A DNA stretch of 64,000 bases, taken from positions 50,840,001 through 50,904,000 of the forward strand of contig OZ024749.1 of NCBI GenBank assembly GCA_964016885.1, written 5' to 3'. Of this stretch, positions 1,193 through 57,498 are shown piece after piece; position 1 is the stretch's first letter; each line of letters begins with the position of its first letter. A program made the translations under genes and the position numbers. The DNA comes from Eledone cirrhosa. Its lineage: Eukaryota. The notes beneath the pieces are model-generated. The model saw nothing but the letters and a program-made list of their open reading frames with translations. It had not been told where the DNA came from and searched no databases.

Positions 1193-4100
1193 TACCTAAA
1201 TAGAGCAGTACATATCTAATTGTAATGGATTTCTTTTTTCTGATGTGTGTGCAAGTTGTAGCTATTATTCTTTGCATTCCCATAACAATTCAGTTAACAA
1301 ACAATTTTGAATATACTAATTATTACGTGCATCTGAAATATATGCTACATTAAGATTACTAGTTTTATATTATTAATTAGACCACCTTTATATATTACAG
1401 AATAAACTTTTGTATATTAAACATGCGCTAGATAGAAAAGATAGATTGGAGAAAAAATCTATCTAATATCGTAATTCTAAGTCATAAACGCTGATTACTA
1501 TTACAAACTACATTTAGCTAAATTATATAATAAATTATTTCCCGTGAGAGAAAAGTGTCAAAATCATATCATCAAACCATATACTGATTTAATTAATTTA
1601 TCTTCTCTCATAGATCACCGTTTTCTCTCATTTTCTTTCAGTGCCTGATTGTTAGAATGCTATAAGTGTTTTTGTTAAATACCTCTATTTTAAAGTTTGT
1701 AAGTTGTTACAGTTAGACCCAGTAATCATTTAATTGAATTCTCCTACGATTAAATGTATCTAATATATAACGACCCTGTTTTGTATGATGGATTCACTGT
1801 TGAGAGTAGCTATTTCTCGTATAGGCCAGAATCACTGAGAGTGATTTTGGTTGACGCTAGTCAGTCGTAGCGATTAATGCAAGGTGACGGTGGAAAGTAG
1901 CAGCAAACATGAGCCCGGAATATATAGATATTATCGGAAAACTACGAGAATTATAACAAGGAATAAAAGTGGCGCACAACGAAAATGCTAGCTTGCATAG
2001 TGGGAAATGCAATATTTAGAAGTTGATTGAACTCGCAAATGCATGGAGATGTTGGATGAAGTTAGCAACTGGCATATTGTCAGTTACTACCTGCACTCTT
2101 CCAGCTCAAATGAGCGCTTATTGGAAAATCATCCCAAGCATAATGTAGGTGCTTAAAGCATCGTATGTATGTTGATAGATTGGAGGTAAATCAGGCCATC
2201 AACGAACAAAACAGGTTCGAATTTCTAACCAAGGTTATGGACAATATGTAAAATTCCCTTGCGTGACAGCGATGTGTGTGTGCTTAATAGTTCGGATCTA
2301 CTGAAGTCTGCAGCAATCTACTCTGTGAGACATGCGTACTGAAGGTCAAAACCGTTCCGCAAGGGATTGGTTCTGTCTATGCATTGACAGTTCGTTATAG
2401 ACAGCTAATGAAGTTCAGTTAGAAATATCAGTCGTAGAGTATGTATTGCAACTAAAGTTTCATAGTAATATTTCAAACATTATTAAAAGTTAATATTTTT
2501 TAAATATTATAAGCAATTATTTAAAGATACTCTATGGGTAATAAGCCCCTGAATCAGGTTAATATATTTTGAAAAAAGACGTGATTTCAAAGTAATGATA
2601 TTATTTCGTAATATGCTTTATTAATTTTCGTCTTACCTACTAACCCTGAGTGCAGCTTATTATATAAAAGTATTTTCTGTGAGAAATAACGTGTATCTAA
2701 GAGGATAATTGCTTTATTGCATATTAGATTAAAACCTGTTTCATATTATCGACTATGTTAGCGTTTGTTTAATATAGTTCTATGAAATTTTACTGCCATA
2801 CTAAAACTAATTATTTTTGTTTCGATGAAAGTTAGGTACTTGTAGTAAAATGAAAACAAAGATACCTACTTACAATTTTAGATATTGTAAAATGCATTAC
2901 ATGAAGCTGCTTAATATAAATTGATTTGTATGTAAAAGTATTTACTCTGGAAAATAGGTCGCTTCAACACTTATAATCCCTCATATAGCAATTTGCAGGC
3001 GAAGCTGTCATTAATGTCTTAAATGCTCAACGAATGAGTGATTATTAAATAATGCTAATGTTCACATCCAATAAAATACTCACCAATGTCACAGAGATAA
3101 GACTATGTTTGATTCATATTATAATTATTCAAAAGAAAGTGAAATAAACTTATCTCATCTATACCCCGAATATACTAATGAAATTTACATTAAAAGTCAG
3201 CCGGCCTTCAATTTCCACTCAATCATCTCCGTCTTGTATTTTCAGTGTTGCGTCTGCTTGAATTCTCAATATTGATTGTTGGAATCTAAAGACATACTGG
3301 AAAAAGCTATTTTCATTCCACGCATTCTTGCAATATTGGCATCGTGTCCACGTGATTTCCTTTTCAGTCTAATTATTCATAGACTTTGGGAAAAATGCCA
3401 ATTAGAGATTTATATGGACGAAAAATCATGAATGATAGTAATTGTTAGCATATAAAACCCCCGCAGTTTTCATATTATCACAAACATAACAAATAGAATA
3501 ACAACGATGAACAAGTTACAAAATATAATACGAATATTAGGAATAAATGAACGTATGGAAATAATGTGAGGAGAATTTTAAAAGTTTGAATAATTCAAAT
3601 ACATATTTGTACTTTTGCTTCTGTTTTTGTTCTTAGCCCACATTAAACAAACCTATGATTTAAAGCGTTACAGTCGTAAAAACTCCATCAATTATGTTAA
3701 AGGCAATGGATAAACATTTTCTAATCTTCCGTATAGATTTGAGGCGATAATCTTTGAAGTCAGGGTAATGTAATTACAAAGTCTCGCGTATAGACTGTAT
3801 ACGGGTAATGTCTTTCCAATAATTTTAAAGGGATATACTCCTAACTTTTATCTATATTTTCCTGATTTAGAGTTGTGTTCAATAGTCGTGTAAATCAGTT
3901 CGCTTCTCATTTATTCTCATATATGTCTTGTGAAAAACCAGGAAATATTCAGAAAGGCAGTGTGGTATCTAACTCTACAATGGAATAGTGCCTGTTGGTA
4001 AAACTATTGCGACATTTTTAGGAGATGGCAAATATGACACATAAAAGCATTAATAAGCCAAACAATTGATATGGACAGAACAAAATAGCATGGTATGATG

Positions 4101-31922: not shown

Positions 31923-33204
31923 ATATATAAAAATGTGTTAACATAAAAAACACGAAATACCTGGAATCAGTATGCAGTTTCCAAAGCAAGTTATTTTGTT
32001 ATGCGTATTCTAACAACAGGGCATATCTTTTTGCAACTGCGTTTTCTCGCTATATATGGCATGCTGATCTTCTTAACGTTTACGCCTTTTAGGCACATGA
32101 TCACAGAGTCACCCACTCAAACGCAGAAATATATATATATTCGTATATATATTCGTATACACACACACACACACACATTCACACACATACACATACACAT
32201 ACACACGCACATACACACACACATATATATATATATATATAGGTTATAGCATCTTCGAAATTATTTCTTGTAGCATGATGATGCGATGTCTCAGCGGTTT
32301 ATAGAGATCTTGACTTTGATCATCTGGGTCAAAGATTCTTACGCGTTATTTCACTCATAGTATCAAGGAAAGTATATTAAACGTGATAGTTTATGGCTCA
32401 AATTACTTTTGTTAAATCCGCTGATGATAGGTTCAGCAGTATCTTGCACATTAAGCGTTGCAAGGCTTACTACAGATTGGATCCTGAACGCTTCTAACGA
32501 AAGGATGCATGTGTGCTCTCATAATGAGCTGTTCATTGACGCAATACATGATAATGGAACATGTTAAAACGAATAATTGATTGCAGAGTGGTATATATAT
32601 AGCGTGTGTCACCTAGGCTGCAGAAATGTGTGTAAGTATCTAAACATAACTAAATGTACGCACGTAAACCTGCCAGAATATATACATTTCTCTGTAAATT
32701 AAATATTTGATAAAACAGTCTTTGATTTACGAATTTTCGGTTTTTCGGATCAAATTTAGCCGTAATCAAAAGTTGTGCATACCACCCAATCAACCACAAG
32801 AACAGATCTGATGTATGCATATATATTGGCTCTTAGTATTATCTTGAAATGGACGAACTTAAGTGATTATAATTAACACGCGTGTTCGTAATTAAGGAAA
32901 TGTAGCGTGCCAGGTTTAACTCTACGAAATAAGGTAAAGTCCATCCGACAGTCCCCCATTCAGCTTCACCCTGTCCAATTTCAGCCAAACGACATGTGTC
33001 AAACAGTGGAATCGAACCTAGGATATATTATTGCGGATCACACACATTTTCTTGATTACTCAGCCATGTGCTTTCATGTATATACCGATCATTTAATTTT
33101 AAATATGACACGTGCTTGTGCGTTGATATGTGTTTTAAAAAAGGAAAACTATATCATAAGATCCTAATTTCGCTATAACACAAACTAATATATATATATA
33201 TAGA

Positions 33205-33272
<68 letters not shown>

Positions 33273-33278
<6 letters not shown>

Positions 33279-33804
33279 GAGATCAAAAGATGGTTAAAGG
33301 AGTTCCATGTATTTTATTATGCGCATTTCAAAAACAAACATCATCATGCAATAATATTTGTGTTTTCATCAGATAAAACAGGAGAACATGATATGAAGGC
33401 TAAAACACACTTGTGGATAGTGCAGTTTTAAATCAACATATGAAAAGTGGTTTTAGATTGATGTGTGATATTGGGAAAAATATTTTATTTAGAGAGGGGG
33501 CTAAATAAAATATTTTTCCCAATATCACACATCAATCTAAAACCACTTTTCATATGTTGATTTAAAACTGCACTATCCACAAGTGTTTTTTAGCCTTCAT
33601 ATCATGTTCTCCTGTTTTATCTGATGAAAACACAAATATTATTGCATGATGATGTTTGTTTTTGAAATGCGCATAATAAAATACATGGAACTCCTTTAAC
33701 CATCTTTTGATCTTATATTATGTATACTCCAGTCCTACAAACTGTAGAGTGCTTCTTATCCGATATCTGCATTGCTTTATTGTACTACAATAAAACTCAC
33801 CTCC

Positions 33805-33808
<4 letters not shown>
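33273..33808 (+). mobile_element. Family B fold-back HHR element (220-bp arms, 8-nt loop, 3' tail extension)
   Basis: Arms 33273-33492 and 33501-33720 with ~2 mismatches, unique tail to 33808, (TA)n on both sides. Confidence 0.9.
33615..33681 (+). ncRNA. Type I hammerhead ribozyme (mirror copy on - strand at 33312-33378)
   Basis: ttttat CTGATGA [stem II] GAA ATGCGCAT A ataaaa: stem I ttttat/ataaaa, palindromic stem III, AUA cleavage triplet. Confidence 0.85.
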
Positions 33809-33884
<76 letters not shown>

Positions 33885-35215: not shown

Positions 35216-35247
<32 letters not shown>

Positions 35248-35257
<10 letters not shown>

Positions 35258-35409
35258 AGATCAAAAGATGGTTAAATGAGTTCCATGTATTTTATTATTT
35301 AACCATCTTTTGATCTCATATATTATGTATACTCCAGTCCTACAAACTGTAGAGTGCTTCTTATCCGATATCTGCATTGCTTTATTGTACTACAATAAAA
35401 CTCACCTCC

Positions 35410-35412
<3 letters not shown>
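35248..35412 (+). mobile_element. Family B short copy with small fold-back, no HHR core
   Basis: Tail nearly identical to 33695-33808; ORFs at 33720 and 35310 share [30 protein letters not shown]. The 5' part is an inverted piece. Confidence 0.85.
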
Positions 35413-35489
<77 letters not shown>

Positions 35490-35498
35490 CATATACAT

Positions 35499-35690
35499 AT
35501 ACTTTGGGAGCCCCTGCATGGACACACTAGAAGAGGAAGACCAAGGTTAACATATGTTGATGCCCTAAGGACAGACACTGGTCTGTTGGAGATGCAGGAT
35601 ATGGCAGCGATAATGAGGGACAGAGACCGCTGGAGAGAACTCGTCCATGGATCTCGGGAATTTTACCCGCCTTAGATAGATAGATAGATA
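35499..35690 (+). mobile_element. RTE-clade LINE 3' terminal fragment
   Basis: [35 protein letters not shown], followed by a (GATA)n tail. Confidence 0.85.
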
Positions 35691-56571: not shown

Positions 56572-57079
56572 GACGTAAAATAAGAAAATTATAAAAATTT
56601 ACCTACTTACTAAAATTTCACTCCAACTAATTAGTTTCTGAAAGGGAATAAACATGGTTTCCGATTGGAACTACATGAAGAAATATCCTTTCGTCATCAG
56701 GGAGATCTGTTCTCACCTAAGTTCCCAGGCAAAGCGTGGACACAAGGAACTTATACAAAAATAATTCAGTGGATGGAAAAAAGCAAGCGAGGACTAGATT
56801 CCAGGACATTGAACAAATCACTGCCTACTTAGTCGGTGGCGAATTCAAAAGAATCAATCACGTGACATCGAGGTCAATCAGTGAGGAGTGAGGGTGCTAA
56901 TAAGACAGTGGCCTGGCTATTACTATGAAGCATAGCAGTAGTGTTGGCAAATTCTTGCTCAACAAAATAATTTGGAGATAATTATAAAGAATTATTATAT
57001 CTACCAACATATATATACAGATGTATACCTATTCTAGCATCGGTATACATCTGTATATATATGTTGGTAGATATACTAA

Positions 57080-57132: not shown

Positions 57133-57136
<4 letters not shown>

Positions 57137-57350
57137 GGAGGTGAGTGTTATTGTAGTACAATAAAGCAATGCAGATATCGGATGTTGATTTAAAACTGAA
57201 CTATCCACAAGTGTTTTTTAAACTTCATATCATGTCTTCCTGTTTTATCTGATGAAAACACAAATATTATTGCATGATGATATTTGTTTTTGAAATGCGC
57301 ATAATAAAATACATGGAACTCTTTTAACCATCTTTTGTTCTTATATATTA
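57133..57350 (+). mobile_element. Family B copy: inverted tail (57133-57183) joined to an HHR segment (HHR 57243-57309)
   Basis: ttttat CTGATGA..GAAATGCGCATAataaaa, nearly identical to the 33.6-kb copy. Confidence 0.85.
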
Positions 57351-57498
57351 TATATATACATATAAATTTAGCGAGAATCGCATTTCGGCGGGCATAAATT
57401 ACCGAAACGCAACTTTCATATTGTGCAGACAAGCGCTCCATGGATATGAAGAAGATACCAGAGCTATAAACGTAAGTTAAAATGGTAACGCTGAGACG

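What the first reader, a model, noticed from the sequence alone, without database searches (positions are those of the whole stretch)
33273..33808. 220-bp-arm hairpin with mirrored HHRs; three differently rearranged copies of the same family
Family B occurs as a long hairpin (33.3 kb), a short fold-back lacking the core (35.25 kb) and an inverted tail joined to an HHR segment (57.1 kb). All share the same terminus (..ctcacctcctacA(TA)n) but have different inversion points. The inversion therefore appears to arise at each insertion rather than being a fixed TIR. About 2 mismatches between arms argue against a sequencing artefact.
Basis: partly seen in the sequence, partly recalled or inferred. 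Interest (0 to 1): 0.72.

Follow-up and report, generated by a model that had tools for sequence, protein, structure and literature searches.

The report
Folded-back Penelope retroelement end stub
This hairpin is the cut-short tail end of a Penelope-like jumping gene joined to a mirror-image copy of itself inside a TA repeat, a known kind of insertion that was likely made in one step by copying the element's RNA from both cut DNA strands.

Summary
The hairpin is real: arms 33267-33492 / 33501-33726 (226 nt, 3 mismatches), an 8-nt turn, then an unpaired 82-nt tail ending CTCACCTCCTAC, all inside (TA)n. It is the 3' end of a 3.7-kb retroelement. [quoted passage not shown] The genome (3.0 Gb) holds over 10,000 copies.

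In 70 sampled copies, 53 carry an inverted 5' arm. There are 41 distinct turn-point pairs, but one hotspot (unit 3452, window 33552) accounts for about half. The inverted arm also has a fixed outer end, 81 nt short of the true end (38 of 53). An insertion unit nearly always has one tailed and one tail-less end (19 of 21). Arms of one hairpin are more alike (98.9%) than arms of different copies (94.8%).

However, this architecture (5'-truncation, adjacent inverted copy, one-sided tail, (TA)n targeting) is already published for PLEs. The "hammerhead" has the core boxes and three helices but is not recognised by Rfam. Verdict: a new member of a known kind. This scan has found the same kind of structure before on other DNA.

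The parts
33185..33266 (.). (TA)n microsatellite on the left: the target tract, abutting the tail-less (B) end
   Evidence: (sequence)
33267..33492 (-). Inverted arm: antisense copy of the element from unit 3628 inward to about 3406. Its outer end is the proximal start site B.
33303..33381 (-). Mirror copy of the hammerhead-like motif (sense on the minus strand)
   Evidence: TCATCAG at 33366; coordinates mirrored by hand from the right arm
33493..33500 (.). Turn, AGAGGGGG. By eye it continues the left arm as the reverse complement of CCCCCTCT, which precedes the right-arm start in longer copies.
33501..33726 (+). Direct arm: sense copy of unit about 3406-3628
33552..33552 (+). Position equal to unit 3452 (..TTTTC|ATATGTTG), the genome-wide hotspot for arm ends. 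In this copy both arms run past it.
33612..33690 (+). Hammerhead-like type-I motif: helix I CUGUUUUAU/AUAAAAUA; CUGAUGA; long helix II; GAAA; helix III AU-GCGC-AU. The predicted cut lies between 33675 and 33676.
   Evidence: by eye; fold; no Rfam match
33727..33808 (+). One-sided tail between proximal site B and distal site A, ending CTCACCTCCTAC. It contains an 8-bp hairpin at 33776-33794.
33809..33878 (.). (AT)n microsatellite on the right
35243..35298 (-). Copy 2, inverted arm (unit 3628<3573)
35298..35413 (+). Copy 2, direct arm plus tail (unit 3595>3709)
57133..57183 (-). Copy 3, direct piece, last 50 nt of the tail (unit 3660>3709), read on the minus strand
57182..57356 (+). Copy 3, arm inverted relative to its tail (unit 3454-3628). 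Its inner end is at the hotspot.

Best explanation
The 542-bp hairpin is the 5'-truncated 3' end of a 3.7-kb Hydra-clade Penelope-like retroelement joined head-to-head to an inverted copy of itself inside a (TA)n microsatellite, and it was likely made in a single insertion event in which both nicked target strands primed reverse transcription, one at the distal start site A (..CTCACCTCCTAC) and the other at a proximal site B 81 nt upstream.

Shown here:
- the hairpin and its one-sided tail;
- its membership of a family of more than 10,000 copies whose full-length unit encodes a telomerase-like RT followed by a region with GIY-YIG motifs;
- two discrete end sites, A and B;
- the pairing of one A end with one B end in most insertion units;
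- variable junctions with a hotspot;
- higher identity between the arms of one hairpin than between different copies.

Inferred:
- Two cDNAs are made in the same event.
[quoted passage not shown] Many templates would end at unit 3452, giving the hotspot.
- The two cDNA 3' ends then anneal and are filled in. Annealing would use either the self-complementary terminal ATAT, giving perfect palindromes, or 3-5 nt of internal microhomology, giving unequal arms.

In the window's own copy both cDNAs would have run about 46 nt past the hotspot, and the left one 8 nt further than the right.
For: Identity of the element:
- The full unit is 3709 bp with a 798-aa ORF.
- An AlphaFold model (pLDDT 80.3, pTM 0.77) matches telomerase RTs best: 6zdp_A Z 17.1, rmsd 2.8 over 260 residues; 9swo_A Z 16.1; 6uso_A Z 15.4. 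The top Foldseek hit is TERT 3du5_A, E 2.6e-08.
- Alignment A1 of 22 relatives keeps RWK, DKT, YRDDG, CxCX5C, GIY..YIG and CxxC..E..N..CxH. These are the motifs given for the Hydra clade in PMC8557442 section 11.

Ends:
- 38 of 53 inverted arms start at unit 3623-3629.
- The B-end-plus-TA pattern occurs 5,818 times.

A/B pairing:
- 10 of 11 inverted pairs in a body-anchored sample are A/B (my reading).
- 9 of 10 full-length units with a readable inverted arm are A/B.

One event:
- Arm-to-arm identity has a median of 98.9%, against 94.8% between copies (25 hairpins, 600 cross pairs).
- There is no microsatellite between the arms.
- An inverted arm is present in 53 of 70 copies.

De novo junctions:
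- There are 41 distinct coordinate pairs among 53 copies.
- At the hotspot, junctions are either perfect palindromes or carry fillers G, GG, C, CA, CCT, CATG, ATCATG or TTATATG. Unequal junctions share TAT, AAC or CATAT.
- Zero-loop palindromes occur at 716 sites genome-wide. By my reasoning these cannot form by intramolecular snap-back.

Internal initiation:
- The A end is followed by ATTA, the first 4 letters of the next unit's head, in 17 of 70 copies and by the whole head in 3 of 70.

Published biochemistry:
- A purified Poseidon PLE protein cleaves and extends both target strands and starts RT at two adjacent internal RNA sites. The tail is the stretch between those sites (PMC11167929, parts 1-2 of 4 read).
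Against: - A/B pairing is not absolute. A/A units exist (L009; L029/L030) and so do B/B units (L155-L158: 4 pairs among the first 100 B ends).
- The in vitro paper saw no difference in start-site use between strands, so the pairing has no demonstrated cause.
- Both arms copy the same RNA stretch. That needs two RNA molecules, or strand displacement on one; neither is shown.
- Reading the hotspot as an RNA 5' end is untested. No RNA run was available. In 30 tandem-junction loci the upstream partial copy never starts at the hotspot (0 of 30).
- High arm identity could also come from gene conversion between the arms.
- The samples are the first hits along one contig (C1) and need exact 28-34-mers, so they favour young copies.
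- The GIY-YIG domain was checked by motifs only, not by fold.
Confidence: 0.65

Rival explanations
1. One cDNA, primed at site A, folds back on itself or switches template to its own product. This would make a hairpin with two tailed arms, and the element's endonuclease then trims one tail when the intermediate is resolved.
For: [quoted passage not shown] Many hairpins, including the window's copy, have near-symmetric turns with short loops.
Against: Zero-loop perfect palindromes (716 sites) are hard to make by intramolecular snap-back. Many copies have an inverted arm far longer than the direct arm, for example L007 3628<3261|3654>, L070 3628<2846|3658> and L023 3452|3632, which self-copying cannot give without a second deletion. 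Solo direct copies that end at B exist (L075, L083, and the full unit at L084), so B is an end in its own right.
Confidence: 0.2
2. A fixed hairpin 'master' (a short non-autonomous fold-back element with defined ends) is itself transcribed and copied. The variants are later internal deletions, as in MITE families.
For: Both ends are fixed. About half of the copies share the turn hotspot (26 of 53 in at least one arm). Some junctions recur exactly: L044 = L072, L067 = L071, and four perfect palindromes.
Against: The ends are not inverted repeats of each other. The same architecture occurs with arms of 50 nt to more than 1 kb that reach into the ORF (L013, L020, L021, L068) and around full-length units. 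A retro-copied hairpin RNA should often be 5'-truncated within the left arm, yet 38 of 53 left arms start at the same site. At least 10 different junction sequences occur at the hotspot.
Confidence: 0.1
3. Two independent insertions of the family landed in opposite orientation in the same (TA)n tract.
For: The family strongly prefers (TA)n: 57 of 70 A-end flanks are at least 70% TA/AT steps. With more than 10,000 copies, nested hits will occur.
Against: The arms abut with 0-14 nt between them and no microsatellite. Arm identity is 98.9% against 94.8% for random pairs. 53 of 70 copies have an inverted partner, and A/B pairing holds in 19 of 21 units.
Confidence: 0.03
4. The palindrome is an assembly or sequencing artefact.
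For: Long palindromes and PLE insertions are known to trouble assemblies (PMC8557442).
Against: There are three arm mismatches. Thousands of like structures with different junctions lie across the genome.
Confidence: 0.01

Closest known systems
Insertion units of endonuclease-bearing Penelope-like elements (Evgen'ev & Arkhipova 2005 and Arkhipova 2006 as cited in, and Craig et al. 2021 as read in, PMC8557442)
   Same: High 5'-truncation; partial tandems (pseudo-LTR); an inverted 5'-truncated copy adjacent at the 5' end; an extension ('tail') at only one end; a bias for (TA)n; a hammerhead-type motif near the 3' end.
   Different: The tail is 81-86 nt here, against the 30-40 bp described. Short hairpin stubs vastly outnumber full units: 181 exact tandem junctions against 10,613 exact tails.
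Hydra clade of PLEs, e.g. Hydra-1_Obim (2507 bp, (TA)n; Craig et al. 2021 File S1/S2)
   Same: A single ORF with a C-terminal GIY-YIG region; DKT in place of DKG; an RWK-type motif; a CxCX5C linker; CxxC and CxH around the conserved E and N; a (TA)n target; a type-I hammerhead-type motif about 100-130 nt from the 3' end.
   Different: By eye the protein is a different family from Hydra-1_Obim, with a clearly different N-terminus. The unit is 3.7 kb, not under 3 kb, because of a 1.2-kb 3' UTR with microsatellite and tandem repeats. The ribozyme-like motif has a 36-nt helix II region and A-U at 10.1-11.1. No tree was built.
Two-site internal RT initiation and two-strand cleavage/extension by Poseidon of Anolis in vitro (Frangieh et al. 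2024, PMC11167929)
   Same: There are two discrete 3' ends separated by the tail. The ATTA carry-over from the next unit shows a start internal to a read-through RNA. The architecture needs priming from both strands.
   Different: A different PLE clade. The sites are 81 nt apart. Site B lies in a TA-rich patch that could pair with a (TA)n primer, whereas the Poseidon sites are reported as non-homologous to the target. The pairing of one A end with one B end per unit is a genomic observation that the passages I read do not report.
L1 twin priming (Ostertag & Kazazian 2001; recalled, not read here)
   Same: A second target strand primes internally on the element RNA and gives a 5' inversion. The junctions use microhomology.
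   Different: In L1 the inverted segment comes from a more 5' part of the RNA, with only small overlaps. Here the short hairpins duplicate the same 170-220 nt in both arms.
Minimal/type-I hammerheads of metazoan PLEs (Cervera & De la Pena 2014, PMC4209133)
   Same: Type-I topology; a short helix III (2 bp) with the palindromic loop GCGC; a large helix II; location in the terminal repeat region. 'Dual motifs 100-700 bp apart on opposite strands' are already noted there.
   Different: It lacks the highly conserved G10.1-C11.1 pair; helix II is unusually long; no Rfam model matches.

Membership tests
Penelope-like elements (EN+) | Reverse transcriptase of the telomerase-related type | tested here: met
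   AF2 model pLDDT 80.3. The best structural matches are TERTs: Z 17.1/16.1/15.4 and Foldseek E 2.6e-08. Other RTs (DGR, DRT2, R2) score within 1-3 Z, so the RT fold is firm and the telomerase-likeness is only suggestive. Pfam gives no hit.
Penelope-like elements (EN+) | GIY-YIG endonuclease domain in the same ORF | tested here: inconclusive
   The motifs LIYECKV..YFGST..FKARLYNH..CNLCLNE..INRR are conserved in 20 of the 22 aligned proteins that reach this region. The structural hit lists were filled by the RT domain, so the fold of residues 660-790 was not tested.
Penelope-like elements (EN+) | Partial tandems (pseudo-LTR), adjacent inverted 5'-truncated copy, tail at one end | tested here: met
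   Tandem junction CTCACCTCCTAC|ATTAACTTGC: 181 exact hits. Inverted arm in 53 of 70 copies. One A end and one B end in 19 of 21 units.
Hydra clade of PLEs | C-terminal EN, DKT motif, CxCX5C linker, CxxC and CxH flanking E/N, no CCHH inside the GIY-YIG core | tested here: met
   P0001 has HSDKTNN, CNCPVKNKC, CNLC..NE.., INRR and CLH. Aligned relatives have no Cys pair between GIY and YIG. The criteria come from PMC8557442 section 11. RWK reads RWI in P0001 but RWK in most relatives.
Hydra clade of PLEs | Placement inside the clade in an RT/EN phylogeny | not tested
   No tree was built. Reference sequences were seen only as supplement text and were not fed to tools.
Hydra clade of PLEs | Insertion into (TA)n | tested here: met
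   57 of 70 A-end flanks and 25 of 38 B-end flanks are at least 70% TA/AT steps. All three window copies lie in (TA)n.
Hammerhead ribozyme, type I | Match to curated covariance models (Rfam hammerhead families) | tested here: not met
   There were 0 matches at gathering score in the 64-kb window. No hammerhead appeared among 39 matches at E<=10 on 801 nt or among 11 matches on 105 nt.
Hammerhead ribozyme, type I | Core boxes CUGAUGA and GAAA, a UH cut site, and three helices around them | tested here: met
   Read from the sequence. The MFE and centroid folds place helices I and II as expected, but the fold is not much better than shuffles (z -1.8, 7 of 200 as good).
Hammerhead ribozyme, type I | Conserved G10.1-C11.1 pair | tested here: not met
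   It is A-U here, by eye. The criterion comes from PMC4209133.
Hammerhead ribozyme, type I | Self-cleavage | not testable with these tools
   Arm ends show no footprint at the predicted cut. Only L015 (1 of 53 inner ends) ends exactly there, and window copy 2 within 3 nt.
MITE / foldback DNA transposon | Terminal inverted repeats forming symmetric ends, fixed structure | tested here: not met
   The ends ..AGATCAAAAG and ..CTCACCTCCTAC are unrelated. Arm lengths vary from about 50 nt to over 1 kb.
Non-LTR retrozyme | Tandem repeats of a short unit, each with a hammerhead | tested here: not met
   The window holds only three dispersed copies, none in tandem. Each 3.7-kb unit has one motif.

The most novel reading that the evidence does not exclude
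Every insertion of this element is built from two cDNAs primed in the same event at two different sites of one template RNA. This forces one tailed and one tail-less end. The sharp hotspot at unit 3452 marks the 5' end of a dedicated short template RNA. Together, the more than 10,000 stubs would then be a genome-scale in vivo record of the two-strand, two-start-site reverse transcription so far seen only in vitro for another PLE clade.
Probability: 0.4. Interest if true: 0.5.

Novelty: new member of a known kind. Interest (0 to 1): 0.3.

Why it matters
The integration mechanism of Penelope-like elements is still largely unknown. The one in vitro study I read reports two RT start sites and extension of both strands, but it cannot say how these combine in a single insertion. 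This family offers thousands of young insertions with base-exact ends and junctions. The pairing of one tailed with one tail-less end, the run-off hotspot with extra letters, and the microhomology at unequal junctions are testable constraints on that mechanism. For annotation, the practical point is that such hairpins in (TA)n are retroelement stubs. They are not MITEs, microRNA precursors (Rfam's weak hits here are all hairpin look-alikes) or viroid-like RNAs.

Tried and rejected
- DNA search of the own genome with the 308-nt arm plus tail found nothing, because common words are skipped. I replaced it with exact short patterns.
- Rfam gave no hammerhead at any threshold. The strong-looking miRNA-family rows are all below their gathering scores and reflect only the long hairpin.
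- Pfam gave no family for P0001 at E<=1 beyond a chance row. It gave nothing relevant for 5 homologues.
- A profile of A1 against PDB sequences gave 0 matches.
- RNA evidence: no RNA holder was listed. Read laying was not used, because the four listed runs are kept as contigs, which cannot show RNA ends.
- I tried by eye a type-III hammerhead reading that would put the cut at the 3452 hotspot. I rejected it because helices I and III do not form.
- Hammerhead-cleaved RNA as a common template is rejected: only 1 of 53 inner arm ends lies at the predicted cut.
- The hotspot as the start of the pseudo-LTR of full-length copies is not supported: 0 of 30 tandem loci. This reading of the hotspot stays open only for short templates.
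- Covariation in the hammerhead-like helices among subfamilies (L002 and L031 variants, by eye) was uninformative: mostly one-sided transitions and some broken pairs.
- The search of earlier findings by place found nothing near.
- I did not cut out the C-terminal domain for a separate fold.

Full report
**The observation**

Window 33267-33492 and 33501-33726 form a 226-nt inverted repeat, 99% complementary, with 8 nt between the arms. An exact comparison gives three mismatched pairs, one of them in the TA-rich outer edge.

The next 82 nt (33727-33808) have no partner and end ..CTCACCTCCTAC. (TA)n/(AT)n runs lie on both sides. BLAST of this 542-nt element against the window finds two more copies, at 35243-35413 and 57133-57356 (sequences). 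The description is therefore correct.

One point was missed. All three copies share the right end and also the left end (..TAATAT[A/G]AGATCAAAAG). They differ in what lies between the two ends.

**What it belongs to**

The last 28 nt of the tail occur 10,613 times in the 3.0-Gb genome; the reversed control occurs 0 times. A 30-mer from the arm occurs 14,563 times.

In many loci the right arm continues upstream into a longer element. In some, CTCACCTCCTAC is followed directly by ATTAACTTGCTCC.., the head of another unit. A tandem pair in L031 defines a unit of 3709 bp:
- about 85 nt of leader;
- an ORF of 798 aa (P0001);
- a 1.2-kb 3' UTR with (CA)n(TA)n and internal tandem repeats;
- the hammerhead-like motif;
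- the tail.

Pfam does not recognise the protein. A database search finds 37 relatives at 28-41% identity, mostly about 700 aa, on contigs of 2-4 kb. Their alignment (A1) keeps RWK, ADKT, FD..FYPSI, GLYRDDGL, SNHP, C.C.....CP.IY.., YIG, CxxC..E, N.R and C.H.

These are the features that Craig et al. [quoted passage not shown] - DKT in place of DKG;
- an RWK motif;
- a CxCX5C linker;
- CxxC and CxH motifs around the conserved E and N;
- no CCHH motif;
- insertion into (TA)n;
- hammerheads present.

(PMC8557442, section 11 read; passages; supplement rows.)

An AlphaFold model built on A1 (pLDDT 80.3, pTM 0.77) aligns best with telomerase reverse transcriptases over residues 1-487: Z 17.1, 16.1 and 15.4. 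DGR, DRT2 and R2 reverse transcriptases follow close behind. The top Foldseek hit is also a TERT (E 2.6e-08). The C-terminal domain was judged by motifs only.

**The published architecture**

The same paper states that PLE insertions are highly 5'-truncated and often form partial tandems (pseudo-LTRs). [quoted passage not shown]

Cervera and De la Pena 2014 had already noted pairs of PLE hammerheads 100-700 bp apart on opposite strands (PMC4209133, passages). The window's hairpin is an instance of this known pattern.

Earlier notes of this scan reached the same reading on other windows of this genome and on other genomes. I treated them as leads only.

I took the first 70 places on contig C1 that hold the exact tail 28-mer (30 loci, 40). 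I mapped each on the unit with its microsatellite masked.
- 53 of 70 copies have an inverted arm joined to the direct arm.
- Of the other 17, six run off the 1.5-kb flank and eleven end inside it. Two of those eleven (L037, L047) show by eye inverted stubs too short for BLAST.
- The outer end of the inverted arm lies at unit 3623-3629 (site B) in 38 of 53. It lies at the true end 3709 (site A) in 2, off the locus in 6 (one of which, L009, is an A end followed by an inverted head), and elsewhere in 7.

The turn is variable: there are 41 distinct coordinate pairs among the 53. It is not free, however.
- The inner end of the inverted arm falls at unit 3448-3456 in 23 copies.
- The start of the direct arm falls there in 17.
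- At least one of the two falls there in 26, and both in 14.
- L067 and L071 are scored at 3438 only because BLAST ran through the palindrome. By eye they also belong to the hotspot.

The hotspot is A3452 in ..TTTTC|ATATGTTGATTT, which is window position 33552. The window's copy 3 turns there (3454). Copy 1 runs about 46 nt past it, and copy 2 turns at 3573/3595.

**Junction detail**

At the hotspot the two arms are joined in one of two ways:
- as a perfect palindrome..AAATCAACATATGTTGATTT.. (L010, L016, L022, L056; 716 such 30-mers genome-wide);
- with a few extra letters: G, GG, C, CA, CCT, CATG, ATCATG, TTATATG or a 14-mer.

Unequal junctions, where one arm reaches the hotspot and the other is shorter, share 3-5 letters at the join: TAT in L044, L045 and L072; AAC in L040; CATAT/ATATG in L002 and L050.

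This looks like two 3' ends that ran off a template, sometimes gained untemplated letters, and then annealed. Annealing would use either their self-complementary ATAT ends or internal microhomology. A zero-loop palindrome cannot be made by one strand folding on itself; that is my inference.

**Same event or separate events?**

For 25 hairpins with at least about 125 nt shared between the arms, arm-to-arm identity has a median of 98.9% (mean 97.9%). Across 600 left-arm/right-arm pairs from different copies it is 94.8%. In 13 of 25 hairpins the copy's own partner is the best or tied-best match. Gene conversion between arms could add to this effect. Even so, taken with the absence of any microsatellite between the arms, it argues against two independent insertions.

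**Two kinds of end, usually one of each**

A sample anchored on the arm 30-mer (30 hits) shows arms ending at A or at B followed by (TA)n.
- B is an end in its own right. Solo direct copies end at B (L075, L083), and so does a full unit (L084).
- B plus TA occurs 5,818 times.
- Of the 11 inverted pairs I could read in that sample, 10 are A/B and one is A/A. I did not check the continuity of two kb-scale pairs (L077/78, L081/82).

I then took 30 loci with the exact tail|head junction; only 181 exist genome-wide.
- 11 of these loci show an inverted arm with a readable outer end: 8 at A and 3 at B. L108 and L109 are two views of one head-to-head unit, so I left both out of the test below.
- I fetched the far 3' ends for 20 of the 30. 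Ten of those were informative.
- All 7 units with an A-type left arm end at B on the right. Of the 3 with a B-type left arm, two end at A and one at B.
- The other ten of the 20 had no readable left end or no downstream copy (two gave no match, one stopped at 2305, one at 3674).

In all, 19 of 21 units have one tailed and one tail-less end. Under free 50:50 choice I calculate by hand a probability of about 1e-4.

Exceptions exist. Four B/B pairs occur among the first 100 B ends. They are older copies, at 82-91% identity to the unit.

**Start inside a longer RNA**

After ..CCTAC, 17 of 70 copies read ATTA before the microsatellite and 3 read the whole head. 45 read ATAT and 5 read AC. ATTA cannot come from (TA)n; it is the start of the next unit. 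This fits reverse transcription that starts inside a read-through transcript.

Frangieh et al. 2024 showed the same behaviour in vitro for a Poseidon PLE:
- both target strands are cleaved and extended;
- RT starts at two adjacent internal sites;
- the tail is the stretch between those sites.

(PMC11167929, parts 1-2 of 4 read.)

Site B here lies in the patch CTTATAT(AT)TAT, which a (TA)n 3' end could pair with. Its exact position wobbles by a few letters.

**Most likely mechanism (inferred)**

The element's endonuclease nicks both strands of the palindromic (TA)n target. One 3' end starts cDNA synthesis at A and the other at B. Both cDNAs run toward the 5' end of the RNA, and many templates end at 3452. 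The two cDNA ends then anneal and are filled in.

Still open:
- why A and B pair so regularly;
- whether one or two RNA molecules are used;
- whether 3452 is a transcription start, a processing site or a pause.

The hotspot is not the pseudo-LTR start of full-length copies (0 of 30). It is also not the predicted hammerhead cut. Only L015 ends exactly at that cut, and window copy 2 within 3 nt.

**The hammerhead**

The right arm reads CUGUUUUAU-CUGAUGA-(36 nt forming a long helix II)-GAAA-U-GCGC-A-UA|AUAAAAUA. That is a type-I layout with a 2-bp helix III and a palindromic GCGC loop, the kind that Cervera and De la Pena describe for metazoan motifs thought to act as dimers.

Several points count against calling it a hammerhead:
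- It lacks the conserved G10.1-C11.1 pair.
- Its fold is barely better than shuffled sequence (z -1.8).
- No Rfam hammerhead model matches it.

I call it hammerhead-like; its activity is unknown. The left arm carries only the reverse complement of the motif.

**Verdict**

It is a new family of a described clade showing a described architecture. The added value is quantitative: two fixed but unequal ends that pair, a sharp hotspot, and junction footprints.

No RNA data were available to test the RNA-end reading.

Noticed in passing
window 33776-33794 (and the same place in other copies): An 8-bp hairpin, UUUAUUGU-ACU-ACAAUAAA, sits 14 nt before the distal end A. It is the only element kept in the centroid fold of the tail.
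   Followed up: partly
window 35500-35680: Directly after copy 2's microsatellite lies coding-looking sequence. By eye it reads like the C-terminal end of another retroelement ORF (..RPRLTYVDALRTDTGL..DRDRWRELVHG..). It was not translated or searched with a tool.
   Followed up: no
window 57008-57075: A separate near-perfect palindrome (..catatatatacagatgtatacc..ggtatacatctgtatatatatg..) lies just left of copy 3's microsatellite. It is unrelated to the family by BLAST.
   Followed up: no
L138 (G000:C1:187376860-187381460), unit 2986-3159: The 3' UTR of one full-length copy carries a large expansion of an internal repeat with a 60-nt step: 12 overlapping BLAST rows. This shows that unit length varies through the UTR repeats.
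   Followed up: no
P0011: The only named relative, a cephalopod protein at NCBI, is labelled 'GATA zinc finger domain-containing protein 14-like, partial'. It aligns along the RT region of this retroelement ORF, so the name looks like a mis-annotation.
   Followed up: no
L155-L158 (G000:C1): Hairpins with two tail-less (B/B) ends exist. In the four examined, arms are 82-91% identical to the reference unit, lower than most A/B hairpins sampled. This may reflect an older or different subfamily.
   Followed up: partly
window 33429-33564: Rfam's permissive search gives plant microRNA-precursor families at E down to 1.7e-16 on the hairpin tip, all far below their gathering scores. It is a reminder that such stubs can be mistaken for miRNA hairpins.
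   Followed up: yes
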